Shown: positions 1,511-31,758 of the stretch, one piece after another
How the letters are laid out: every line of letters begins with the position of its first letter
Numbering within the stretch: the stretch's first letter is position 1
Assembly (NCBI GenBank): GCA_046563655.1
Contig: CM102285.1
Location: 12,834,001 to 12,898,000, forward strand
Length of the DNA: 64,000 bases
Direction of reading: 5' to 3'
Source: Yuukianura sp. NJ FZ-2021
Taxonomy: Eukaryota
Position numbers and translations under genes: made by a program
Notes under the pieces: model-generated
The model's input: only the letters and a program-made list of their open reading frames with translations
Databases searched by the model: none
What the model was told of the DNA's origin: nothing

Positions 1511-4500
1511 ATGTTTCTTTCTCAAGCATTCATTTGGCTATGTTTGTGCATACTGGTGCTCAATACAAAGGAAACAATATCATCACTGGCTAGGCGCCGA
1601 GCATCGGATGGCGCAGCACCGGGATCGGAATCTGTTATTGACGTGTTCATGCCCAAAGTGAAACCGCAGAAGGTGAATTACAACATCTGCTTTATGTCCT
1701 ATTTAACGTTAAAATGTTGCTTTTCGGACGATTCATATCTACTAAGTTCCCTAAATACTTGGCTTATTGTCAGGAAATGTTAGCTTTTCGTTGCCCTTGA
1801 GTTGACAGAAAGGCAAAAATGTTGTAACGACATTAAGAAAAGACATGCTTGCGGAATGTTTTGCTCTAATTACTTTTGGTAATGGATTTCAAACGAGGAC
1901 TATTCTGCAAAATATTGGGAAACCCGGCATTTTTTGGCTAAAGAATCACGGTTTTCGTAAACCAAAGGGAATAAAGCTTTGTGGTTTGACATGTTTTTAA
2001 AAACTGTTTGTCGTTGTATTTCAGGATGATGCGTACTTATGTACTTCCAAAAATGTCGCCTCCTTGGGTACGCAGTACATTCACAAGTTTGAGCCCAACG
2101 CTGAGGCATCGCGAGCACATCATATGCTGCTTTTTACTTGCGACACAGTAGAAAGTGAGCTGTTGCAGCAGGGCCACTGGTACAATGAATTCGAAATACT
2201 TGTGATTGAGCATAATATTGAGTTATTTGGATTTTTAACTGTTTGTTTACATCTTTGTCTTGAACAGGGATTGTGCACATCATTACAGTGCCTGTAGGAA
2301 CATGAGGATAATTTACGCTTGGGCCAAAAACGCACCGCCAACAATATTACCAAAGGTAACTTGAACCTTCATTCAGTCTGCCTTAGAAATTCATTCAGTC
2401 TGCCATTAACATTTTATTTGCAGGATGTAGGTTTCCGCATTGGCCCGGAGTCCAACATTTCATATTTAGTTCTTCAAGTTCACTATGCTCATCCAATTCC
2501 TGCTGATGAAACTGACGAAAGTGGTTTTAAGGTCGTCGTTTCCAATGAAGAGTGAGTCTCAAGAAATTCTTGTAAAAAAATCAATTTCCAACGATTTTTT
2601 CCAAATTGTTAAAAACCATTTTTCATTTCAGGCCGCAATATCTTGCCGGGATGATGTTACTTCTGCAGGGAGGACTGGAGATTCCAGGAAACACGGAAAG
2701 TAAGTGTGTAGTTGCAATAGCTAAAGCTTTTCGATGTTATTTCTTCCTAAATCTCAGTTTTTGATTGGTTGATTTTTAACTTTTGTTTGAATCCAGAAAC
2801 ACACGGGGATATGAACTGCGTGTTGCGATCTCCCGCGCCAATCGTTCCTTTTGCTTATCGTGTTCATACTCATCAATGGGGCGTCGTTGTGTCAGGCTAC
2901 CATGTGAAATTCGGAGATCTGGAATTTCACGAATTGGCTAAAGGAAATCCACAATGGCCACAAGCCTTCTATCCAATGAAGACCAAAACAGTGATAAATC
3001 CTAAAGACTTGGTCGCTGCCCGTTGCACTTTCAACACTACAGGACATGACCAAGAAACGTTCATAGGAATGACAGCCGGTGACGAAATGTGCAATCTGTA
3101 CATCATGTTTTACACTCAGTCGAGAGATCCCGATGACCATTTCATCCAATGTTTCAATGAACAGTACCAAGGCGTAAATCGGGCGTTGCCTCCTGACTCC
3201 GATGTTCCTTTGCCTAGAAACATTACGTTGGAAGAGCATGCAGCAGGGCACGCCCATCAAGGGAAACCGAGCAGTTCTGGTTCGTTTATTTCCTTGGTTC
3301 ATTGCAATCGATTTCTCTTTTTACTTGATTTTAACGAAACTTTTTTGTTGCTTTGCAGAAGAGCTCAAGAAGAAAAATCATGCAAAGAAACGACCAGGAT
3401 TTCAACCTTATGAATTGGAAGAACAAATTGCTTCAATTCCGCATCAGTTTGATAATCCACCACAACAATTCGCTGGCGATTACAACGGGTTAGCTGAAGG
3501 GGAGGACAGAATGGATCGTAAACTTCTAAGCACATCGGAATATCACGTAGTGGAAAATTGGCCTAAAGCGGAGGTTAAACTTGGACAAGCAACTGGAACG
3601 GATTTTGACTTGGCTGGAAATATTGTTGTTTTTCATCGCGCGGATCGTATTTGGGATTTTTCAACATTCGATGCTTGGAACAAGTATACAAATCGGAGAC
3701 TTGGACCTATTGCTACCGATACTGTTTATGTGATTCATCCCACTTCTGGAGAAATCTTACACCAATGGGGAAGAAACATGTAAGTTTGTTTATATTTTCA
3801 AGCTATAACGTGAACAAGTAGTTCATGATGGATCAATTACAGGTTTTACATGCCTCATGACATAACAATTGCTCCCAACGGTGATACATTTCTGACGGAT
3901 GTAGCGCTGCATCAAGTATTCAAGGTATAACTGATATTATGTTTGATTTTACTTAGAGTTGGTTCTCCAGTGCTAATGTTTGTGTGATTTTGAATTAGTT
4001 TAAACCTGGAGATTCCAAAGCATCATTAACATTAGGCGAAGCATTTCAACCTGGAAAAGACGACAACCACTTTTGCAAGCCCGCTGCAGTAGCAGTCATG
4101 AGCACCGGTGATTTCTTTGTTGCTGATGGCTACTGTAACTCAAGAATAGTCAAATTCGATAAACTTGGAAGAAAGATACTAGAATGGGGTAGACCATTCC
4201 AGCCAAGCATAGCTCAAAGGCTTATGATGACGGCTCCACCAGCGTATACTTTCAGCATCCCACATGCTCTTGCGTTAGCCGAGGATCAAGATTTGCTATG
4301 TGTTGCTGATCGTGAAAATGGAAGAATTCAGTGTTTCTCTGCATCTGAAGGAAGGTTTAATTTCATGGTTAGATCTGCAGCCTTCGGTGGCCGACTGTTC
4401 AGCGTCGCATATTCTTCCATGGGAGGTAAGTCCTTGTGCAGAATTTTTAAAAAATGCTGTAAAGTTAGTTGAAAGTTCAAATCTGTTGAAATTTTCACAG

Positions 4501-5184
4501 GAGGAACTCTGTTTGCTGTGAACGGAGAACAAGGTTCAGCCAAAGTCCAGGGATTTGTCATTCCACTTTCCACAAAGCGGGTAACAAGCGTCTTTAGTCC
4601 AAACAACAAAGGATTTGGTCAACCTCATGACGTTGCAGTGAGCAAGAACGGATCGCAAGTAATCGTTGTTGAAATCAGCACCCCATATAAAGTATGGAAG
4701 TTCGAACGAAATGCTGATGCTCGAGTTAACAAAGCACAGAATCCCATATCTCTTCCAATTACTTCTGGAATGTCAGCTGGGAAGACTCCGGTAAGTGACA
4801 AAGGCACTCAAATTAAAAAGGAAGCAAGTGATACTCAAATGGACGTTGGAGATGAAGCCTTCGGGAGTTCTGTTATAATCATGGCCTTTCTGACCATCCC
4901 ACTCTTGTTCTTGATTGGGGTTGGAGCCTTACTCAGACTGAGAACGAGTGGTAAGTAAATTATTACCGCAATTCAATTCATTTTGCTTAAATTTTGGAAT
5001 TTATGAATTGCTGCTTACAGTTTGCTGCAGAAAACGAAAGGAAACGAAGAGTTTTGCTGAGTTCTTCCCGCCGAGTGCCGGTTTTGAAAAGTTAAGAATG
5101 GACGAAGAAAGTGAAAGTGAAAACAGTGACACGGAAGTAGAAGAGTTCACTAAACCTGGATTTCGGAAATCGTTGAGGACTTAA
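1511..5184 (+). CDS. PAM: Bifunctional peptidyl-glycine alpha-amidating monooxygenase (signal peptide-PHM-linker-PAL-TM-cytosolic tail)
   Basis: Phase-consistent GT-AG exons: 1511-1672, 2025-2179, 2268-2355, 2424-2551, 2632-2699, 2797-3279, 3359-3779, 3843-3924, 3999-4425, 4501-4950, 5021-5184. PHM copper-ligand motifs AHHMLL, LQVHY, RVHTH, DEMCNLY. PAL motifs FHRAD, MPHD, ADGYCNSRI, PHALA, ADRENGRIQ, PHDVA. TM VIIMAFLTIPLLFLIGVGALL; acidic tail GFEKLRMDEESESENSDTE. Confidence 0.95.
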
Positions 5185-6217: not shown

Positions 6218-9200
6218 TTAGAATAATCCAGCAGCTTTCTTTAGGTTTTGCTGCTTCCAGGCTGCTAGGCCATCGAATGCTTTGTGGTCCATCTTAAACA
6301 CTTTTCGAAAATCATCTTCGTTCAGGTACAACTGAAAACGAAGATTTTGAAATCAGAATTTTAAAAAAAAACAACAACAATATTTTTTGAAATTTCAGGA
6401 TTTTACCTCCTTGCGTGATGGATCGACATCTTTTGGCAGTTTATCGGCTTCCTTTGCCGAAAGCACATCATATGGATACTTCTTGCATGCTGCAAAGTCA
6501 ACTCCTCCGTTCCTCTGAGATGCTTCGACATCAGCCAGTACTAGTCTGGGCTGTTCCGCTTGCATTGTGGCCTTCAATTCGGCAAAGGTTTTGTTTTCCT
6601 AAAAATGTCAAATAGTTTTTTGCTAAATTTCGAAATTTTGAAAATGCTTACATTCCAGAGTGCTGTGTCCCAAACGCCAAAGAATCCAGTGAACGTCGGT
6701 GGTTCGTAGCCCTGCTTCACTATCAAAATTGGAGCATCGTGGTCACGCACTGCTGGATCCGTTTTTAGATACTTCTGGGCCAATTCTACCGTCTTTTGCT
6801 GTTCCGTCTTGTTCGAGTGTGCTCCGAACCAAAGGAAAATGGTGTGTCCAACATCCAGCAACATGACATCATCTTCGACCAAATCCGTCTGGGTAAAGTT
6901 AATCACTTCTTCAGCTATACGAAATAAATTCAAAATTTTGAATTTAACAAAATATTTTTGAAAATTTTAGATCACAAGTATTGGAATTTACCTCGGAGGT
7001 TTCCAGTTGCATTTGAACACTGAAACAACCTCGGCGGAGCGTCGTGGTCCTCTACGGCAAGCCGCTTGTCTGAAGCATACTCCTCTTTTCCACCAATGGC
7101 ACTCCAGAAATCTTCTTTCTCTTGACCTTCATACACTGTGGACACATCAGCACGGTCTTTACAAGCAATCATTCGTCCAATTTCTCTTTCGTCGCCAGTA
7201 CATCCCTTGCCACACCATAGGAAAGAAGTCGATTCTCCAACAAGGACGAAAACGTCATTGGAATTGAGTGATGCAGCACGAAGCGTAACTTGAATTGCTC
7301 GACTCTCGTGGGCAGCACTTCCGCGAATTTGAAGAAGAAACGGTTTCACGGGTTCGTAGTTGCAGTCGTCAGCATCTCCCAAGTATACGGTCATGCTGCC
7401 TCCAAACATGGCGACAAAGTGTGGTGGCTCTTTTCCTTGCGTAACTCGGATTTGAATGGCTCGTCCTCCGACGGCATCGTCCAGCTCAACGGCAAACAGC
7501 GCCGCGGTGCCTTGATCCTCTGCTGTGGCTTTCAATCCCTGGAAAAAAACACGAATTCAGGGTAAGCAAATTTAGCAACGAAAAGTTCGTTATGACATTT
7601 CATGGAGGAATCTCTGATGTACTTACCAGCCAATAGTAAACCAGAATGTGTTCAGTAGCTCCAGTACTGGTGTACTTGACAATGTAACAGTCATGTTCGA
7701 AGAAGCTACCAAAGTAAGTTGGTTTGACAGGAATCAACTTGTGGTTGTGAACTTTAAAAACTTCTTTCTTTCCAGAAGCATCGTCCAGCATTTGAACCTT
7801 GGCAGCTAACTTCGGTTGTTCATGGAGACTCGAAGCGTCGAAACTGGTTTGAACAGTATGGGCAATTCCTTTTCCTGCACTAGACATTTGACGTCCAAAT
7901 CCAACCGACTGGTCCTTGACTTTCCAGCGACAAAACAATGATCGGAACTCTTCCGGTTCACCACCATCGATAACGCGTGACACTCGAGTGGTCTCCGGGT
8001 ATCCTTTTTTCTTAATAAATCCTTGGGCGTTTCGCATAGCCTCAATTCTCTCTTTGTTGCTAGCCTTCTTCCCAATCCAAACCCAAATGCCATGGCTCCC
8101 GTTGTCAACAATGAAGGAATCCTGCAAATCAGAAGCAAGTCAAGGTCAAGGGTAGGGTTGTTCAAGTTCCGTTCGGTTCCGTTTCTACGAGGAACGGTAG
8201 CGGCACTGGAACCGAGTTATTGAAAATGGAACGGAACTAGTTTAAAAATTGGGAAACAGAAACGAAACAAACGGCACCGAAACGGAACGGTACGGAACTG
8301 GGACCGAAATATATGCATAAGCTGAGTATGTATTATTCTGCATTTTTGATTCATATTCTATGAAAAGTTGACTCGAAACACTATTTTTTGAAATTTTGAG
8401 GAACTTTTCGTTTCCAGCTTTATTTTGAGGCAGAAACTGCTCCACCACACCATTGAACTGGAAACGAAACGGAAACGGAACTTTTATTTCGTTTTCAAAA
8501 TATGTGGAAACGGCTGCGGAACTGGTTTCGTTTCGTTTCAGGACCGGAACTTGCATATCCTTAGTCAAGGGGTCAACGGAATGCAACATGAGTGTGATTT
8601 TCAACTTACCCCAGAAGTGAGGTCAGCTTGGAACAATGGACCAGTTTTGACTTCCGTGACACGCAGAGTCCCTTCGTCGTCAGTACACCGATAGAGCTTG
8701 ATTTCGTAAGTGACCTGGTTGTCAGCTTTGGCGTCGTCAGTTGCAGGCTTAAGTAACTTTTGTTTGTCTTTCAGTGGCAAGTACGAATTGAACAACTTCT
8801 CTTCAGCTTCGTTCAACTTTTCTTCTTGGCCATCTTCCACGAAAATGATTGGTTGCAGTCCACCCATTTCGGCTTTGAATTGTTGTGCCACCTAAGGTAA
8901 ATTCCAATTTAACTTAAACCGTATCGCCATAAGACTTGACTAATTTGATCATAAATTGGAACCTTTGCAGCTTGGAGTCTCTCAAGGTGATTGGACGTTT
9001 GACCTTCCCAGATGAAAATGGCATCTTTCGTTTGGAGAACAAAAACGTCGCCGCTGTTCATGGCACTCCAGGAGATCTTCTGCGCTTGCGTGATCACAGG
9101 ACGCCGCTTGCCTTTGACTGAGAACAGTTTTGGTTGAATTGTGTTCGTAACATGATGAAATCCACTGTCCACACCACCTTGCAGGATTCTAAACAACAAA

Positions 9201-10821
9201 CAATTAATTCCATTTGAAGGTTTAGCCTGATTCCGGATGTCCGCAAACCCAGCGAACCTTGACGCTGTAACGAGCCTTGACTCACCTAAAGCCATTGGGA
9301 AAGTAAGACCGAAACCGCTGTGACTCAGAACCTTCTGTTTCACGATGCTGAATTGGAGCTCCACCCAGGAAGTCATCTGGAGTAGGAAAACGTATTTCAA
9401 TTAACAATTTTTCACACATTTTAATTCAAAATTTTGAAATTGCCAAGATTTCAAAAAATTTTCTGTTTTAGCAAATGCAATTATACCGAGCTCAACAGTT
9501 TTGTAGGCAGCCACACCAGCCTCATCTGTCGAACCACTTTGTCCTAGCCAGAAATGAATGTGCTGTTCCAAGCTGCGTGCTTCCTTCACCTATTCAATGG
9601 TAATTAAGCACCAGAGTTACTTAAGACACTAATTTGCACCCATTAGCCTTACAGGTTCATTAAAATTTCATTTTCATATGCAGGAAAACCAGAAAAATCT
9701 TAGTTTTAGTCACCACTATCCTCGTTGGAGAAAAAATGGAAAATGGGCATTGCGGATAGCTAAGTTCTTGAAACAATGGATTTGATTTTTATGATTTTTC
9801 ATCAAAATTTAGGTAGCCTGACTGATTGGATGAAATCAACACTCCATCGTATTCAGTATGGAGTTGCTGTGTGCTGATGGAATTGACTTGTTCAAGAGGG
9901 CCAACTAATCAGCACTTTTGTTCCAGTTGCAAATGAAGGTAGGTGATAATAAGTTTTCAGAATTAATCAGATTAATCAAGGACCTCGAGATGACAATTGC
10001 TTACTTTGAGATTGAGTCCACCGGCTTGGCCAGGTTCTGTAGCACTGTACACAATGTAGGCATCGCCATTGTAGAAACTGCCGTATTGGTCTCTCGGCAA
10101 AGGCACTAGTTGCAGCTTCTATTTTCGAGAAAGAGGCACAAAATTAATGAATATTAACTATACAATTTACTAATTCATAATTAATTTGAGTGGTTCGCTT
10201 AAATTCTGAATTTAAAAGTCGAGTTTTAATTCACGAATTTTGGAATTTCTGAATTCTCAGAAGCTCGAACAATTTTTTTTATTTTTGCAAATTGCATTCA
10301 CTCTGCAATCAGATTTTCACTAAATCCGCAATTTCATTGGAATTGGAAAGCTGAGAAAACATTGCAATTTTTGCAATTGGAAAGCTTTGTACCATCTGCT
10401 AACAAAATTATCTGTTCTAGATTTCCCAAATACACTACACTTTAATTACAATGCATGAAAATTGCATCTCGTTCTACTTCTAAACTCAAACCACTTTCTT
10501 TGTCAATTCAATTTAAAAAGTTAATCCATTAATCTGGTTTTCACTCGTGACTTTACAAGTTTTAACTTTCGGTAATCAAAGGTTATTGTTTCCAACGGCT
10601 TAATTTATGACACAGCGTAAAAACCTGAAATTACTCGGCAAATTACTCACTTTCCAAAAATTTTACAAATTAGATTCGAAATTATAGCAGATTTTAACTA
10701 AAAGATTGCACCGGTTTATGAATTTGTAAATTTTGAACGAACTTACTTCGATTCTCCAGATGAGAAAAGTTGTAGATCCTCTCGGGATTTGCTTAAAAAC
10801 TGGATCAACGGAGCCTGTCAT
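6218..10821 (-). CDS. Villin/advillin-like (quail-like) actin-binding protein: gelsolin repeats plus C-terminal headpiece
   Basis: Multi-exon model starting MTGSVDPVFKQIPRGSTTFLIWRIE (10747-10821), then KLQLVPLPRDQYGSFYNGDAYIVY (10005-10118), HIHFWLGQSGSTDEAGVAAYKTVEL, QHRETEGSES, MNSGDVFVL, RVTQGKEPPHF, LNSNDVFVL, PRLFQCSNATG, DLVEDDVMLLD, VKQGYEPPTFTGFFGVWD. Ends in headpiece LYLNEDDFRKVFKM..LAAWKQQNLKKAAGLF* (stop 6218-6220). Confidence 0.93.
8153..8563. mobile_element. Non-autonomous hAT-like MITE inside a villin intron
   Basis: Identical 8-bp direct repeats GTCAAGGG at 8145-8152 and 8564-8571 (target-site duplication). Imperfect terminal inverted repeats TAGGGTTGTTCAAGTTCCGTTC / revcomp TAAGGATATGCAAGTTCCGGTC. 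Many internal GGAAC/GAAAC subterminal repeats in both orientations; no transposase. Confidence 0.85.
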
Positions 10822-18986: not shown

Positions 18987-21900
18987 ATGATGACCGAAGA
19001 CTTAAATGATAACTTTCCAGTTAGGGAAAATGGTAATGTCTGTAGATTCACTGTCTCTTTGGCTCTGAACATTTTTGTTTTTATAAAATTTCTGTAATTT
19101 CCAGGAAGAAATCCAGTTATAACACGAGATGTGAATGAAGATCGTTTTCTGAGAGTATCCGAAGAGAATGTGACATTGAAGAAGCATCTAAGAAAACAGG
19201 AGGACCGTATACGTCAATTAGCCACAAAATTAGTTCGTGTCATAGGTGAAAAGTCGAAAAGATCCGAACGTGATGACATTCTCATAGGAGATCAAAAGAG
19301 TCGAATTGAAGAATTGGAAGCACAAGTTAGCAATTTGAAAGGCAAATTGTCTGTGGCCAGGCAACAACTTGGATCATGCACGAAACTTGTTCCAGGAGCT
19401 CCGAAACCTGGAAGACCAAAGTAAGATAATCAGAATCTGGAAAATCACGTTTGTTCAAACAGCACATTTTGTTCAAACAGCATATTTTGTTCAAATGGAA
19501 CTTTTTTGTTTAGATCTTCCCGAAGTGTCACTGGAACGCCTACGGTAGTTCCAGACGAAGTTACCCGATTGCTGATTGATGCCAAAGGAGAAAATCATTT
19601 GCTAAGAGATCAAGTGAAGCATCTTCAAGAGCGATGGAACAAAACCAATCAGGAACTGATGGTTCTTAAGGAGCAGCTTGAGCAAAAAGATGTAAAACGA
19701 AAATATTTTAGTCAAGAATGTTTTGGATCTTGAAATTTTGAAAATTTTGGTTTTGACAGGTTGAGCACCAGGATGAGCTGGCAGCGATTCAAAGTCAAGG
19801 TCAACTAGAAAGTGACCTCAAACAGAAGAAGTTGGCAGACAACATTCAATTTATTCGGCTCCAGCGAGAGTCGAAACGAACTGCCAGTTGGCTAGCAACG
19901 TACGAAGCACAATGCAGAACGCTCGAGGCTAGTTTGAATTCGGCTAAAGAAAATATTGGACAGCTTGAGTTGCAATTAGCCACTGCGCAAGAGGACCTGC
20001 GCAGTGAGCAGTCAAAATGTCTGACACTTTTGAAGCAAAATGAAGAGATTGGGTCAATGGTGCAGCAGTTGAAGGAAGCCAATGCACAAATTGATGCTCT
20101 CAAGGTACGCCTTACAAAAAAGTTTTTGAAAATCTTGCCAAAAAATTTTTGACTTAATTTTCAGTTTTTGTCGTTTCTTCGCAGGATGAAAACACAATTT
20201 TGAAGGAAGCCAATGAAAGTTTTCTGGCGAAATCACTTGAAAATTGCGAAAGAACGCAAGCGATTGACAAAAAAGAAAGTGAACTGAATTCTCGAATTGA
20301 CCAATTGGAAACGACGGTGAAAAATGAACAAAAAGCCAAATCCGATTTGATTTCAGCTCTGACACAAGAGAAAGCCAAATCGTTGTCACTTGACCAAGCG
20401 TTACAAATGTTAGACAAAAAGTGTGTTACACTTTCATCGCAGTTGACGTCAACGACTGAAGAGTTGTCCAGGATAAAAGAGTACGCCGAAAGTTCTCCGC
20501 GGGAAATTGTCGTAGAAAAAGAGTTTGTAACGAAACCTTGCGAAAGTTGCCCGGTAAAGGATTCGGAGCTGACTGAATTGAAAGAACGAGTGACACAAAT
20601 GAAAACAGAAGTGTCAAAACTTAAAGAACTGCTTAAAACACAAGTTGGAATTAACAAAGAGTACCAAGAAGAGGTAACTTCTGTTTTCTAAAAAATGAAA
20701 ACACTGAATTCTGAAAATTTTGAAAAACTTATTTCGAATTTTGAAATATGCAGATTGACGCACTTACGACACAAATGGCTGCCTCTGAAGCACTTCATGA
20801 AAAAGAAAGGCGGGAGCTCATGTTTGTCTTCAGTGACAAAGCGAACAAAATGGCCGAATTAGAACAAAGTTTAGAAACGCTACGCAACAGAATTCCGTCA
20901 ATTTTGACGGGTGACACACCACATTCTACGTCAAAACCTACAGTTGCGCCTGACAATACGTCAAATCCACCACCTCCAATTGAACATGCGCCAAATCTGT
21001 CACCTCCAACTGCAGATTCGTCAAATCCTTTAGCTCCTCTCGTCGATTACGAAAGTTCAAAAGATCTTGAAATTCAGGACGAAATGGATGAAAGTAAACA
21101 AGGATTTGTCGAAGAAGAAGTCGTAGATGAAATCCCAGAAGATTTAGACTCGGTTGACGCTTTTCAAAAAATGGAAATCTTGAATCCTGATGAGGACGCT
21201 GATGCGCCAAAATTGAAAATTGAAATTCAACAATTCGTTCCTGTCGATAAAGAAATTCTGCCGCGCCTGTTTGTGACCTGGGAACACGAGTCTCTGCCAC
21301 GACAGTATTCGCCAATCGTCTCCGACGGAAATTTCAACTCCAAATCTGTTCATCTGATTAGTGATTCTTTTAGATCGGTAAATACAAAATTTCCTAAATC
21401 TGAAAATTTCTGAAATAGTATTTTTAAAATTTTGTATTTTTATAGACTTCACTGGACGTTCACTTGCATCAAGCCATTGGAGAATCAGATTCTCGTGTTA
21501 TCGGATTTGGCATAATGAATCCCGGACTGATCCAGTTTACCGGAATAAGAAACATCGACAACGAATCAGAGGAAATCGGAACACTTTTCTACAGTTATGT
21601 GTTTCAAAATTTTGAAGAACAAGATCTGATCGATATCCCGCCACCACAATTTGTCCCACCACCACCACCACCGGTTCCAATTCCCAGAAAATTTAAAACG
21701 ACAGGGGCTAAAGTTGCTGGAACTGGAATTGGACAGCCAGTTTTAGAGCCACAAAAAGTTTCTGAACCCGAGAAAACAGTAACTGCACAGATACACACTC
21801 TTCCAGAAGTGCAAGAATCCAGTTCTGAATCACTGGATCGAAACCTTGGCAAGAGAAAATCAATTTTACGACGTGAACCGACACGAGAATTTGCAAAATC

Positions 21901-22840
21901 CGGAAAACGAAGAGTTCGAGTCAGTGACAAAATTGAAGAAAGAAAATTCGATTCCGATTCGGAATGTCAGATAAGTATGGAATCCGAAGCAGGTCAAGTT
22001 TCTGACGACAATTCTTTTAGCATTGGACAAGTTTTGACCAAAAAGTCTAGCGGTTTACCAGAACCGTTATTCAGTATCGGTCAAGTTCCGGAACCGCCGA
22101 AGCGAACCGTACCGACTCCGGAACTGCAGCAACAAGATTCCGAAGTTTCTTTGAAAAGACGTTCCAGAAGAATGTCGAAACAGACAGCTACGGAAGAATC
22201 GGACGAAGTATCTTCAAGCCTCTCCGTTGGAAGTGAAGGCGAAACGAGTCGAAATATTTCCGATATCGAAACGATTTCTGAAGAACCGTACGGAGATTGT
22301 GACATGACAATTGAAATCATATATGCAAAATTTACATCTCACACGAGACTGCTGAGTGACCCTCAGGTCAAAAAGTTTTTTGTAGAGTACCAACTTCTAA
22401 ACTACTCCGCTGAAGACCTTGAAACTGAAACGTGTCCAACACCGCCACTTGGACGCAAAGCAAATTTTAACTTCAAAAAAACGTTTTTGATTGAAACGAA
22501 GGAGAGGAGATCACTTCTGAGAGAAATGATTTCAAGTAACAAAAAATTGCAGTTTACTTTAGTCACTGAACCAAGTGACAATGACACAATTGACTGTGAA
22601 GATATTGGGTAAGCTTCAATCAATTTCAGTTTGACCTTGAGGTCAAGATTGTGTTAAAAGTTACCATTTTTGAATTTTTGCTTTTACAGTTTTGCCTACG
22701 TGTCTCTGACGGACATTTTGAATTCTGGAAACGACATTTCAAGAAAGGAAATTCCAATTTTTAATTCTGAAAACTTGAATAATGAGATTGGAGTCTTGTG
22801 TGTTTCAGTTTTGGCATTTAAAGTTCTAAACACTTTGTGA
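18987..22840 (+). CDS. RPGRIP1L: RPGRIP1L / protein fantom (MKS5) homologue, ciliary transition-zone scaffold
   Basis: N-terminal FPVREN and EDRFLRVSEENVTLKKHLRKQEDRIRQLATKLVR match the family N-terminal coiled coil, as does DNIQFIRLQRE. Long coiled coils follow. C-terminal RPGR-interacting C2 domain: VKKFFVEYQLLNY..DLETE..NFNFKKTF..LQFTLVTEP..CEDIGFAYVSLTDIL..IGVLCVSV. About nine GT-AG exons. Confidence 0.88.
19449..19496. repeat. Short intronic tandem repeat (TTTGTTCAAACAGCAYAT-like unit, about 2.5 copies)
   Basis: tttgttcaaacagcacattttgttcaaacagcatattttgttcaaa read directly in an RPGRIP1L intron. Confidence 0.7.
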
Positions 22841-28410: not shown

Positions 28411-29422
28411 ATGTATACTGCGGCTGACTTGAACCCTCCGAGATGTTACTACAAGGTCCTCAACGTTGAACCCAATGCAACCAAAGAACAAATTAGCAAA
28501 GCGTACAAAAAGCTCGCCAAGTTGTACCACCCAGACAAAAACAAATTCGAGGGTGCCACATCAAAATTCCAGGAACTGGAAAAAGCGTACCGATTGTTGA
28601 CATCGGAATCGGCCAGACGAGCTTACGACGCGGCGAGAACTGGCCGAATTCTCAATCAGTCTCAGAATCAGTCCACTACGACTAGAACGACTACTACGGT
28701 TAGAACTACGACAACATTTTCGTTTGCAAGTGCCGATGGAACTCAATACACGTACGCCAATCATTCTTACCTATTGAAGTTTTACTTGGTTGTATCAAAT
28801 TATAAATTATGAACATTTTAATTACAGATCTTATACCTTTACTTCAACTGGGCCAAATACTTTCACTTATTCTTTCGGAAATGGAGGCACAACATTTACA
28901 AGCAACGGATACACTTACTACTCTGGAAATGGAGATGCGTCAACCAACAATTACGTCAAAGTCACATCACCCACTGGCGGAAAGTTCACAACGTCGCAAG
29001 ATGGCCGATCATTTACGACATCAGAAAGTGGCCACACGTACATCCTGGAAGGCCCACAAGGAACCTTCGGCTGGTCACCTACTTTTACATGCTCTGGAGA
29101 TCGAGTGAAAATCATTGAACGCGGAACAAATTGGACTGTCAATACAACTGGAAACGATGTACATGTCACTGCAACAGGAGCTGGAACGAAAGTGACGGCG
29201 TCAGGCGACAACGTCTTCTGCAAAGCCTCTGGAGCCGGAGTACACTTTCGGTCGACAGGAAATAAAACCAAATGCGCAGCATCTGGAGCTGGCGTCACCT
29301 TTGTCGCAACCGGAAAACAGCCCCACTGTGACGCTTCTGGCGCCGGGGTCACTTTCAAAGCTGCTGATGATTCAGCCACATACACTGATACAGGAGTCGG
29401 GTTCAAATTTGTCCACAACTAA
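28411..29422 (+). CDS. J-domain (DnaJ/Hsp40 class C) protein fused to Thr-rich region and nonapeptide repeats
   Basis: Exons 28411-28751 and 28828-29422 join in frame (TQYT-SYTF). J domain YYKVLNV..ISKAYKKLAKLYHPDK..FQELEKAYRLL..RRAYD. C-terminal 9-aa repeats such as GTKVTASGD/NVFCKASGA/GVHFRSTGN. Confidence 0.85.
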
Positions 29423-29645: not shown

Positions 29646-31758
29646 ATGACCATGAGCGGTAGCAGCACCAATCGAACCAGTGACGCAACTCTGAAATTGA
29701 AATCTCCAAGAGTGACAATGCCGCCACCACCGCCATCCAAAGCGTCCGTGATTTCAGAATCTTACTTAAAAGACTCCAGCCTCAGTCGTCGAATTGTCCA
29801 CCAAGCTTGGGAAATTGACCCATTCGTGTATCGACTCGGAGAACCTGGTCGCGGAGGAATTCCATCCAGCGTCTGTGGCAGTATTCTGCAAAGCGTTTGT
29901 GAAGAAAGAGGCTGGAAACCGTTTGGACCAGAGGAGGAACGACTGCTGAATGGCAATTTGCTTGGGTGGAATATTTGGTGGAAAACGATTTTTTCAGCGG
30001 CTCCTCAACGGTCGTTGTACTCTTGGCAGTTTGTCAACTACATTCCACGGGCGATTGGATTCTGCAACAAGGAATATTTGGCTCGTTACATGAATTTTAT
30101 GCATGAAACGTATGGATCCATTTGCGACTTTTGTCCAACGACGTATGTCCTTCCAGAAGATTTTTGGAAACTGGATGCCGAACATGCTCGGAGGTAAGAA
30201 ATTTCGCCGCCGAAACTTCCAACATCTTTGCGCAACAAAAGTTCACGATATTCATCTGAATGAGCAAGTAATTTTAGCTTTTTTGGTTTTTCAGGTCACA
30301 ATTGAGTCATGCCCGAGCTCTTATGTGGGAAGAACGAGCAAGAAACTTGATTCCGATTCAGCCTGGCGTCCAGGAACTTGAATGCAAGCAGTTGGACAAA
30401 ACGTGCGTCCAGAAAAACTTCCAGCCCATTTGGATTCAGAAACCAATCGGGAAAAGTCAAGGCAAAGGCATTGTAATTATAAATGACACGACGACCTTGA
30501 CAACCTGTGAGACCAATTCAGTTGTCCAGGAATACATTGCCCGACCTCTACTCATCGCCGGACACAAGTTTGACCTCAGACTGTACGTCGTCATTCCGTC
30601 CACCATGCCACTGACAATCTACCTCTACAATGAAGGCCTAACGCGATTCGCTGTTGAAAAATACGACATCCGGAATCTGGCCAGCAACTTTTCTCATTTG
30701 ACCAACGCAACGCTGAACAAAACAAGTCCAGAGTATTCGCGAGACAAGGACTGTCTGGGTGTCGGTTGCAAATGGACTTTGGGACGCCTGAGGCAACACC
30801 TTAGAAGCCAAGATCGTCCTGACTGGTTCATGTGGCAGAGGATCGTGTCCATCGTAGTTCTAACTTTGGTTGGCGAATTTACAAAAACTGGAACTCTGCC
30901 GCACTGCAGAAACTGTTTTGAGTTTCTTGGTTACGACATTTTGCTGGACGATGACCTTCGACCTTGGCTTCTCGAAGTGAATCACTCTCCAGGACTGAAT
31001 GCTGACTGTCAAGTGGATCGGGACGTCAAGAGTCCATTGTTGCATGACTTGTTCAATCTCCTTGGACTTCCAAACCAAGGCAATTTCGAAACAATTTCAA
31101 AATAATACACAAATTTCAAAATTAGTTTGAGATTTTGAAATACTTTTGATTTCCAGGGCCTAGGAAGATAAAAAATGGCGGATTTTCTCTGAATAACTTT
31201 CTGCGCATTACAGGTCAACTCCGCCCGGCAACCGTCGCTTCAACGGAACTCAGAAACCTTACAGCCGAAATGACCAAGAAATTGCAACGGGAGGAAAAAA
31301 TTAAACTGGAACGCCAAGTTGCTAAACAGAGCATGCGCAATCGTCTGATGGAGTTGACTGCAATTTATTCTCAGGATTTGACCCCATTGAGTATGAAGAC
31401 TTCACAGAAACAGAAACAGAAAAAACCGAATTCCGGGCCGCCGAAGGCAGAAGAAGATGAGTCTGTTTCATCCAAGAGTAAACGAGGAATCAAACTACGA
31501 GACTGGATTCATCCGATTAAAAAGTGTGGTGGTTGGGTCCGGATCTTTCCGTTTGATTCGCTAAGTCATGAACAGAGTCGTGGGAAAATTGCACTGGATA
31601 CCAAACTGCTGGTGAATCACATTTACTGCAATTTGAAAAAAGCAAGAGAAATTACTTTGAATCATCCGGAACAAACTGATGAAGCGTTTGCTGCTGCCAT
31701 CAAAGACGCTAACAAACTGACGTCTGAAATTTGGATTCCTCCGTATCCTCAAAATTGA
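29646..31758 (+). CDS. TTLL2: Tubulin tyrosine ligase-like protein, TTLL2-like polyglutamylase
   Basis: Exons 29646-30193, 30295-31079, 31157-31758. Motifs WNIWWKT, WIQKP..SQGKGI, VVQEYIARPLLI..KFDLRLYV, EGLTRFAVEKYD, HLTNATLNK, GCKWTL, NCFEFLGYDILLDDDLRPWLLEVNHSP. The GCKWTL/NCFE context best fits TTLL2. Confidence 0.85.

What the first reader, a model, noticed from the sequence alone, without database searches (positions are those of the whole stretch)
28411..29422. Unusual fusion: Hsp70-recruiting J domain + Thr-rich beta region + nonapeptide beta-roll-like solenoid
Seen: intact HPD J domain with no signal peptide, then TTTRTTTTVRTTTTF and YTFTST/TFTYSF strands, then about 12 nine-residue units (SPTFTCSGD RVKIIERGT NWTVNTTGN DVHVTATGA GTKVTASGD NVFCKASGA GVHFRSTGN KTKCAASGA GVTFVATGK QPHCDASGA GVTFKAADD SATYTDTGV). 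The units have an 18-residue super-period with stacked Cys and Phe. Known: 2x9-residue coils form parallel beta-rolls (RTX-type geometry), and flat Thr-rich solenoids occur in ice-binding proteins, adhesins and amyloid-like modules. I know no animal DNAJ with this layout. Inference: a new co-chaperone that templates or targets beta-rich assemblies or ice, possibly made by exon shuffling (the intron separates the two parts) with a microbial-type repeat.
Basis: partly seen in the sequence, partly recalled or inferred. Interest (0 to 1): 0.8.

Follow-up and report, generated by a model that had tools for sequence, protein, structure and literature searches.

The report
J-domain chaperone with beta-roll tail
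This is a real two-exon animal gene for an Hsp70 co-chaperone whose tail is predicted to fold as a rigid stack of nine-residue beta repeats, a very rare layout whose cellular target is unknown.

Summary
Exon 1 (28411-28751) encodes an intact HPD J domain (Pfam DnaJ, 1.5e-23). A 76-nt GT-AG intron joins it in frame to exon 2 (28828-29422). Exon 2 encodes a Thr/Ser/Gly/Phe-rich low-complexity stretch, then 12 nonapeptide units plus a seven-residue end with an 18-residue super-period (lag-18 z = 10.2).

The fusion is not a splicing guess. A metagenome contig from another animal carries the same architecture as one uninterrupted ORF. Its J domain is 57% identical and its tail 30%.

AlphaFold2 models of both proteins give a confident two-sheet beta-solenoid (pLDDT 75-94). 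They superpose on RTX beta-rolls and the CAP C-terminal beta-helix (Z 10-12). The RTX calcium motif GGxGxD is absent.

The closest sequence and predicted-structure look-alikes are the nonapeptide repeats of E. coli YdhT and phage DUF7666 proteins. Unrelated periodic proteins score similarly, so homology is unproven.

Only one relative appeared among 1.84 billion representative proteins.

- Ice binding: no conserved Thr ladder.
- Exon shuffling: the relative has no intron.

Best reading: a lineage-restricted class-C-type J protein whose beta-roll is the targeting or client-binding module. It is a new variant of a known kind, of moderate interest.

The parts
28411..28751 (+). Exon 1: start codon, J domain and Gln/Thr-rich start of the linker (113 codons plus 2 bases)
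   Evidence: Translation. The in-frame join to exon 2 was computed.
28447..28629 (+). J domain (residues 13-73) with the HPD motif
   Evidence: Pfam PF00226, 83.1 bits, E 1.5e-23. 57% identical to the J domain of P0005. Matches 51 solved J-domain sequences at E <= 1e-5.
28752..28827 (+). Phase-2 GT..AG intron, 76 nt
   Evidence: Sequence printed. It is absent from the homologous gene in L001, which is one ORF. An alternative in-frame donor at 28779 was seen by eye and not resolved.
28828..29422 (+). Exon 2, including the TAA stop at 29420-29422
   Evidence: The C-terminus aligns to within 2 residues of the end of P0005.
28645..29074 (+). Low-complexity linker of about 118 residues, interrupted by the intron. 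Composition: T 26%, S 13%, G 13%, F 8%, N 7%, Y 7%
   Evidence: Composition. pLDDT is below 50 for most of it in the window model and about 30 in the P0005 model. The shared motif SPTGG[KE]F appears.
29075..29419 (+). Twelve nonapeptide units plus a terminal 7-residue strand. This is the predicted two-sheet beta-roll with 18 residues per turn
   Evidence: Autocorrelation and unit list. Column counts. AF2 pLDDT 74-93 with a 4-6-residue strand in each nine-residue unit. Structural matches.

Best explanation
This is a genuine protein-coding gene of an invertebrate-type animal genome, encoding a 311-residue cytosolic J-domain co-chaperone of the class-C kind. The N-terminal J domain (HPD intact) would dock on Hsp70 and trigger its ATPase; that step is inferred from the family. 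A linker of about 118 residues, rich in Thr/Ser/Gly/Phe/Asn/Tyr and predicted disordered, tethers it to a C-terminal domain of about 115 residues. That domain is built of 12 nonapeptides, [GN]-V-x-[FVC]-x-[AS]-[ST]-G-x, and is predicted to form six turns of a calcium-independent two-sheet beta-roll. The inferred core is a Phe/Cys/Val ladder at position 4 and Ala/Ser at position 6. As the only folded non-J domain, the beta-roll is most likely the module that gives the protein its specificity, by binding a particular partner or site so that Hsp70 is recruited there. The partner is unknown.
For: - J domain: Pfam DnaJ 83.1 bits with HPD.
- Gene model: the GT..AG intron keeps the frame.
- Conservation: the same architecture occurs in a second animal contig, L001, as one uninterrupted ORF at 1277-2149. 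Its J domain is 57% identical (E 2e-24) and its tail 30% identical (E 8e-18), with the same C-terminal end.
- L001 is animal genomic DNA. It carries an inward-rectifier K channel split between two adjacent reading frames, read as an intron.
- The window's neighbours are animal genes: a peptidylglycine monooxygenase domain, NHL repeats, gelsolin, an RPGRIP1-type C-terminal domain and TTL. Contamination is therefore unlikely.
- Fold, window model: exon-2 residues 100-197 have pLDDT 74-93 from a single sequence.
- Fold, P0005 model: pLDDT 75-94 for residues 180-280, a J domain of helices, and a linker at pLDDT about 30.
- Structural matches of the window model: CyaA RTX 7usl_C Z 11.8; CAP C-terminal domain 1k4z Z 10.3, rmsd 2.5 over 97 residues; RTX-like 9cse_A Z 9.1, rmsd 1.9 over 87.
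- Structural matches of the P0005 model: CAP1 1k8f Z 12.4, rmsd 2.5 over 115; 7usl_C Z 11.7.
- What the two species share in the tail is mostly Gly8, the position-4 aromatic and Val2 (invariant list). That is the pattern of a structural scaffold.
Against: - No expression or splice evidence could be obtained.
- Both structure models rest on 1-3 sequences.
- Z values of 10-12 for repeat folds show shared geometry only. Foldseek found no PDB match at E <= 0.001.
- Nothing identifies a partner.
- The presumed outward positions 3 and 5 of the units differ between the two species, so no conserved binding face is visible.
- The in/out assignment of side chains is inferred from strand alternation, not read from coordinates.
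Confidence: 0.6

Rival explanations
1. DNAJB6/DNAJB8-like anti-aggregation chaperone. The Thr/Ser-rich linker itself binds beta-rich or amyloid-prone clients through its hydroxyl groups. The beta-roll serves mainly for self-association or as a cap on growing beta-sheet edges.
For: The linker is 26% Thr and 13% Ser, with Gly/Phe/Asn/Tyr. It is conserved in kind, though not in sequence, in P0005. The solenoid ends at the very C-terminus with no visible cap. CsgA curli fibrils appear among the structural matches (8enq_A, Z 11.1). The role of the DNAJB6 S/T region is recalled knowledge, not tested here.
Against: The CsgA match has an rmsd of 8.6 Å. The J domain shows no special affinity to DNAJB6/8 among solved J domains: DNAJA1 is best at 5e-15, against DNAJB8 at 5e-11 and DNAJB6 at 1e-9. 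No DnaJ C-terminal domain or other class-B feature matched in Pfam at E <= 1.
Confidence: 0.2
2. Ice-binding or antifreeze protein. The flat solenoid face would adsorb to ice.
For: Beta-solenoid ice-binding proteins are among the structural matches. MpAFP 3p4g scores Z 8.2 for the window model and Z 11.8 for P0005. The Lolium ice-binding protein 3ult scores Z 6.2 and 8.6. An ice-nucleation repeat cluster scored 0.77 in the Atlas, which that tool's own note rates as a lead only (under 0.9).
Against: Positions 3 and 5 of the units are Thr in only 5 of 12 and 4 of 12 units in the window, and 3 of 13 each in P0005. They are not conserved between the two species. There is no signal peptide. A J domain implies work alongside cytosolic Hsp70. 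The structural matches are generic to solenoids.
Confidence: 0.03
3. The gene model is wrong or the gene is dead. On this reading, exon 1 is a short J-only gene ending at the stop at 28810-28812, and exon 2 is an unrelated or decaying ORF.
For: The donor GTACGC is not a strong consensus. A second in-frame donor exists at 28779, seen by eye. There is no RNA evidence.
Against: P0005 holds both halves in one ORF, collinear with the window's exons and ending at the same place. Both exons are open and full length, with HPD intact.
Confidence: 0.07

Closest known systems
Class C J-domain proteins (Hsp40 co-chaperones with a J domain plus a lineage-specific targeting domain; classification recalled)
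   Same: A canonical N-terminal J domain with HPD, followed by a flexible linker and one unrelated folded domain.
   Different: The partner domain is a nonapeptide beta-roll. I found this next to a J domain in only 1 of 18 hits from 1.84 billion representatives, and in none of the 6 other proteins returned by a J-domain-led search.
E. coli YdhT (NCBIfam PRK09946) and the repeat region of phage and bacterial DUF7666 proteins
   Same: - Nine-residue units with a hydrophobic residue, then small-[ST]-G, in the same register.
- Gapless 113-residue BLASTP alignment to YdhT at 25% identity, E 9e-7.
- YdhT profile E 1e-8 for exon 2 and 6.5e-5 for P0005.
- 12 of the 18 library hits are of this type.
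- Predicted phage structures superpose at rmsd 1.3-1.8 Å over 83-89 columns, at Foldseek probability 1.00 but E 0.12-0.40.
   Different: - 35 bits against a family cut-off of 300.
- No DUF7666 N-terminal domain.
- No conserved C-terminal cap of the GEN-IKA-WY-L-GEF type, judged by eye.
- The core residue is aromatic or Cys rather than Leu/Ile.
- An unrelated periodic kinase-repeat protein, P0019, also reaches 9.3e-5 on the YdhT profile. Common descent is therefore not shown.
RTX calcium-binding beta-roll (adenylate cyclase toxin RTX blocks, AlgE6 R-module, LipA)
   Same: Two-sheet roll of 2 x 9 residues per turn. Matches: Z 9.1-11.8, and rmsd 1.9-2.6 Å over 85-95 residues for 9cse_A, 2ml1, 9p6c_A and 7rah_E.
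   Different: No GGxGxD motif (0 matches in either protein). No Pfam HemolysinCabind hit at E <= 1. The protein is cytosolic rather than secreted, and 4-14% identical.
CAP/Srv2 C-terminal (CARP) beta-helix, also found in TBCC and RP2
   Same: A eukaryotic cytosolic right-handed beta-helix of similar size. Matches: 1k4z Z 10.3, rmsd 2.5 over 97; 1k8f Z 12.4, rmsd 2.5 over 115 for P0005.
   Different: 2-5% identity. No Pfam match to any CAP or TBCC family at E <= 1. No evidence of actin or tubulin binding.

Membership tests
J-domain protein (Pfam PF00226 DnaJ) | Profile match above the gathering score | tested here: met
   83.1 bits against a cut-off of 27.8, residues 13-73 covering profile positions 2-63 of 63.
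J-domain protein (Pfam PF00226 DnaJ) | His-Pro-Asp motif in the loop between helices II and III | tested here: met
   LYHPDKNKF. The same string occurs in P0005.
J-domain protein (Pfam PF00226 DnaJ) | HPD-dependent stimulation of Hsp70 ATPase | not testable with these tools
   Needs a biochemical assay.
Class A/B Hsp40 (DnaJ/Sis1 type) | Cys-rich zinc finger and/or DnaJ C-terminal beta-sandwich domains | tested here: not met
   No such Pfam family at E <= 1 in either exon. The Gly/Phe-containing linker resembles a G/F region by composition only.
RTX beta-roll (Pfam HemolysinCabind) | GGxGxDxUx nonapeptide with calcium-binding Asp | tested here: not met
   0 matches to GG.G.D in exon 2 and in P0005. 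No Pfam hit at E <= 1.
RTX beta-roll (Pfam HemolysinCabind) | Two-sheet roll, 18 residues per turn | tested here: met
   Predicted model only. Z 9.1-11.8 to RTX chains, with rmsd down to 1.9 Å over 87 residues.
YdhT (NCBIfam PRK09946) / DUF7666 repeat proteins | Whole-protein score at the curated cut-off (300 bits) | tested here: not met
   35.1 bits for exon 2 and 22.6 bits for P0005. True members score 87-152 bits even as fragments.
YdhT (NCBIfam PRK09946) / DUF7666 repeat proteins | N-terminal DUF7666 domain and conserved C-terminal cap after the repeats | tested here: not met
   No DUF7666 hit at E <= 1. The protein ends within the repeats.
YdhT (NCBIfam PRK09946) / DUF7666 repeat proteins | Homologous nonapeptide repeat | tested here: inconclusive
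   For: E 3e-10 to 8e-4 to 12 such proteins, and reversed or shuffled queries score about 0 bits. Against: 5 unrelated periodic proteins also hit at 3.8e-26 to 5e-4, and 1 of those 5 reaches 9.3e-5 on the YdhT profile.
DUF3060 (PF11259) | Pfam profile match | tested here: not met
   No hit at E <= 1 for exon 2 or at E <= 0.01 for P0005. There are only Atlas leads at 0.75-0.76, which that tool rates as leads only, being under 0.9.
Beta-solenoid ice-binding proteins | Regular, conserved outward-facing Thr (TxT-type) array on one flat face | tested here: not met
   Thr in 5 of 12 units at position 3 and 4 of 12 at position 5 in the window, and 3 of 13 each in P0005. Which positions face outward is inferred from strand alternation.
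CAP C-terminal / CARP beta-helix | Sequence-profile membership | tested here: not met
   No Pfam hit at E <= 1, and 2-5% identity in the structural alignments. The fold resemblance itself is present, at Z 10.1-12.4.

The most novel reading that the evidence does not exclude
An animal lineage captured a bacterial or phage YdhT/DUF7666-type nonapeptide beta-roll by horizontal transfer and fused it to a J domain. The result would be a co-chaperone that brings Hsp70 to a beta-rich or filamentous target, or that itself stacks end to end through its uncapped solenoid. That would be a domain and a mode of client recognition not known in any described J protein.
Probability: 0.12. Interest if true: 0.7.

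Novelty: new variant of a known kind. Interest (0 to 1): 0.4.

Why it matters
J-domain proteins decide where and on what Hsp70 acts, and each new targeting domain points to a new client or site. A calcium-independent beta-roll in a cytosolic animal protein is unusual. Here it is conserved in two species yet almost absent from sequence databases. Its nearest look-alikes are uncharacterised bacterial and phage repeats (YdhT, DUF7666 proteins). Learning what the animal domain binds could therefore also shed light on those families. Because the family is so narrow, any biological lesson is likely to be lineage-specific.

Tried and rejected
- Word-indexed search of 5.8 billion proteins. Exon 2 gave no hit. 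The tail of P0005 found only itself. Whole P0005 found 6 further proteins that share only the J domain. I read 4 of those 6, and none has the repeats.
- The best library hit, P0003 (E 3.8e-26), is 13 tandem chitin-binding CBM_14 domains (Pfam count). The score is about 9 bits per copy summed over 12 matched stretches, and exon 2 has no CBM_14 hit. I rejected it as an artefact of repetition.
- Foldseek found no match at E <= 0.001 against the PDB or BFVD.
- A profile of the two tails against PDB sequences gave nothing better than E 0.31.
- Rfam found 0 families in the window.
- Paralogues: tblastn of both exons against the window found only themselves. The whole genome is not held, so the paralogue count is open.
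- Sequencing runs: no RNA holder was listed, so no reads could be laid.
- Homodimer prediction for exon-2 residues 83-197 returned no verdict (score 0.01). This is no evidence either way.
The source name and sample type of P0005 remain unknown to me.
- Literature: 'J-domain' + 'beta-solenoid' returned 3 papers, none about such a protein judging from listings and abstract starts. 'DUF3060'/'DUF7666' returned 1 unrelated paper. 'J-domain protein' + 'beta-helix' + 'C-terminal' returned 0. 'DnaJ' + 'beta-roll' returned 6, of which 5 were listed and all unrelated. 'J-domain' + 'antifreeze protein' + 'solenoid' returned 0. 'YdhT' returned 14, of which 10 were listed; none characterises the E. coli protein judging from listings. 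I saw only listings and abstract starts and read no paper.
- The phylum of the window could not be established. The neighbouring TTL-family gene has a TTTTCAG acceptor, which I recall as typical of nematodes. That is a lead only.

Full report
**What is there**

The window is animal DNA. Stop-to-stop ORFs around the finding match a peptidylglycine monooxygenase C-terminal domain, NHL repeats, gelsolin repeats, an RPGRIP1-type C-terminal domain, DUF4789 and a tubulin-tyrosine-ligase family gene that starts about 230 bp downstream on the same strand.

At 28411 an ATG opens a frame whose first 113 residues contain a complete J domain. It scores 83.1 bits on Pfam DnaJ against a cut-off of 27.8, covering profile positions 2-63 of 63. 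The motif LYHPDKNKF is present, and the N-terminus has no hydrophobic run.

The frame then runs through QSQNQSTTTRTTTTVRTTTTFSF. A GT at 28752 and an AG ending at 28827 delimit a 76-nt intron. Removing it gives a 936-nt reading frame of 311 codons ending in TAA at 29420-29422.

Exon 2 starts with a Thr/Ser/Gly/Phe/Asn/Tyr-rich stretch.

A second in-frame donor at 28779 would add nine linker residues. I saw it by eye and cannot decide between the two donors without RNA.

**Is the repeat more than chance?**

Identity autocorrelation of exon-2 residues 82-197 against 500 shuffles gives z = 4.3 at lag 9, 10.2 at lag 18, 6.7 at lag 27 and 8.1 at lag 36. The first 81 residues of exon 2 show no comparable period.

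The column profile is [GN]-V-x-[FVC]-x-[AS]-[ST]-G-x. Gly occupies position 8 in 11 of 12 units. Position 4 alternates Cys and Phe in units 6-11, which is the 18-residue super-period.

Tandem Repeats Finder finds nothing at the DNA level, so the units are ancient rather than a recent expansion.

**Are the two exons one protein?**

A full HMMER scan of 1.84 billion representative proteins with exon 2 gave 18 hits at E <= 0.001. One of them, P0005 (282 aa), is the only one with a DnaJ domain. Its J domain is 57% identical to exon 1 (E 2e-24). Its tail is 30% identical to exon 2 (E 8e-18). The shared features include an SPTGG[KE]F motif, eleven to thirteen units of the same nonapeptide, and the same C-terminal end.

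Its contig, L001 (5399 bp), encodes it as a single uninterrupted ORF at 1277-2149. The same contig carries an inward-rectifier K-channel gene split between two adjacent reading frames, which I read as an intron. It is therefore animal genomic DNA, not a transcript or a bacterium.

The architecture is thus conserved, and the intron in the window is lineage-specific. The intron also sits inside the low-complexity linker rather than at a domain border.

**Fold**

AlphaFold2 on exon 2 alone (one sequence) gives pLDDT 74-93 for residues 100-197, with a four- to six-residue strand in each nine-residue unit. The preceding 99 residues are mostly below 50.

A model of P0005 from a three-row alignment gives a helical J domain (pLDDT 66-85), a linker at pLDDT about 30 (residues 88-157) and a solenoid at pLDDT 75-94.

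Foldseek finds no PDB match at E <= 0.001. The all-against-representatives aligner does find matches.

For the window model:
- RTX blocks of adenylate cyclase toxin: 7usl_C Z 11.8; 9p6c_A Z 9.9, rmsd 2.6 over 95; 7rah_E Z 9.8, rmsd 2.5 over 95.
- An RTX-like domain: 9cse_A Z 9.1, rmsd 1.9 over 87.
- The CAP C-terminal beta-helix: 1k4z Z 10.3, rmsd 2.5 over 97.
- CsgA: Z 11.1, but with rmsd 8.6.

For P0005:
- 1k8f Z 12.4, rmsd 2.5 over 115.
- 3p4g Z 11.8.
- 7usl_C Z 11.7.

The tool warns that repeat folds can reach such Z values through shared geometry alone.

It is not an RTX repeat. GG.G.D occurs 0 times in either protein, and no HemolysinCabind hit appears at E <= 1.

From strand alternation I infer that positions 2, 4 and 6 point inward and positions 3 and 5 outward. 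I could not read coordinates to confirm this.

**Nearest look-alikes**

The 18 library hits break down as follows:
- 1 is P0005.
- 8 carry Pfam DUF7666 at E <= 0.01: P0004, 6, 7, 9, 13, 14, 15 and 20.
- 4 more show the same LA[AS]SGxxSx units by eye: P0010, 11, 12 and 16.
- 5 are unrelated periodic proteins: P0003 (CBM_14 array), P0008, P0017, P0018 and P0019.

NCBIfam adds E. coli YdhT. The profile hits exon-2 residues 85-178 at E 1e-8 and P0005 residues 180-274 at 6.5e-5, both on profile positions of about 113-210.

YdhT itself, translated from the K-12 record, aligns without gaps over 113 residues at 25% identity (E 9e-7). It shares units such as NVHIIASGE.

In BFVD, predicted phage proteins of this type superpose on the window model at rmsd 1.3-1.8 Å over 83-89 columns with probability 1.00, although their E-values are only 0.12-0.40.

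Against common descent:
- Reversed and shuffled queries score about 0 bits on these targets, but the targets were chosen by the real query, so this control is biased.
- The five unrelated periodic proteins reach E 3.8e-26 to 5e-4 in the same scan.
- One of those five (P0019) reaches 9.3e-5 on the YdhT profile, as good as P0005. True members score 1.7e-24 to 2.7e-44.
- The animal proteins also lack the DUF7666 head and the conserved cap that follows the bacterial repeats.

I therefore say the tail looks like, and probably folds like, the YdhT/DUF7666 repeat. It is not shown to be a member.

**Function**

The J domain implies HPD-dependent activation of an Hsp70. This is inferred from the family.

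There is no zinc finger or DnaJ C-terminal domain. By the usual classification (recalled), this makes it a class C protein, in which the non-J domain supplies specificity.

The beta-roll is the only other folded domain and is conserved as a scaffold. The residues invariant between the two species are mainly Gly8, the position-4 aromatic and Val2. I take it as the targeting or client-binding module (confidence 0.6 for the whole statement). The partner is unknown.

The main rival gives the client-binding role to the Thr/Ser-rich linker, by analogy with the S/T region of DNAJB6 (recalled), with the solenoid acting in self-association. Nothing here tests it.

Ice binding is unlikely. Thr occupies the presumed outward positions in only 5 and 4 of 12 units, those positions are not conserved in P0005, the protein has no signal peptide, and it carries a cytosolic co-chaperone domain.

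**Rarity and novelty**

- One relative was found among 1.84 billion representatives.
- The 5.8-billion word-indexed set holds none beyond P0005 itself.
- There is no paralogue in the window.
- No description turned up in the five searches, for which I saw only listings and abstract starts.

J proteins with idiosyncratic partner domains are a well-known kind. I rate this as a new variant of that kind rather than something categorically new.

**What remains open**

- Expression and the exact donor site.
- The phylum. A TTTTCAG acceptor in the neighbouring gene is a nematode-like lead from memory only.
- Paralogue number.
- Whether the roll is homologous to the bacterial repeats.
- The binding partner.

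Noticed in passing
window 29650-31758 (+): A tubulin-tyrosine-ligase family gene (Pfam TTL, 1.1e-63 for the exon at 30278-31102). Its likely ATG lies only about 230 bp after the J-protein stop, on the same strand. Its first intron has a GTAAGA donor and a TTTTCAG acceptor. The close spacing could mean co-transcription.
   Followed up: partly
P0004, P0006, P0011, P0013, P0020 and E. coli YdhT (L002:8751-9560, minus strand): The uncharacterised E. coli YdhT and the phage or bacterial DUF7666 proteins share the nonapeptide repeat. By eye, they also share a conserved C-terminal cap. YdhT profile E-values for these proteins run from 1.7e-24 to 2.7e-44. P0004 additionally has a Macro/DarG-like N-terminal domain (9.5e-20), which hints at a role in phage-host conflict.
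   Followed up: partly
L001 3905-4891 (+): The metagenome contig that carries the homologous J-protein also carries an inward-rectifier K-channel gene, split between two adjacent reading frames that I read as exons (IRK 1.3e-28, IRK_C 2.3e-29). No synteny with the window was seen.
   Followed up: partly
window 20154-20691, both strands: Frames of 177 aa are open on both strands over the same 530 bases. The plus frame reads as a coiled-coil segment upstream of the RPGRIP1-type C-terminal domain (21446-22612). The minus frame is probably just its mirror.
   Followed up: partly
window 2751-4958 (+) and 6574-9400 (-): A peptidylglycine monooxygenase C-terminal domain followed by NHL repeats, which is a PAM-like gene. 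A multi-exon gelsolin-repeat gene lies on the opposite strand.
   Followed up: no
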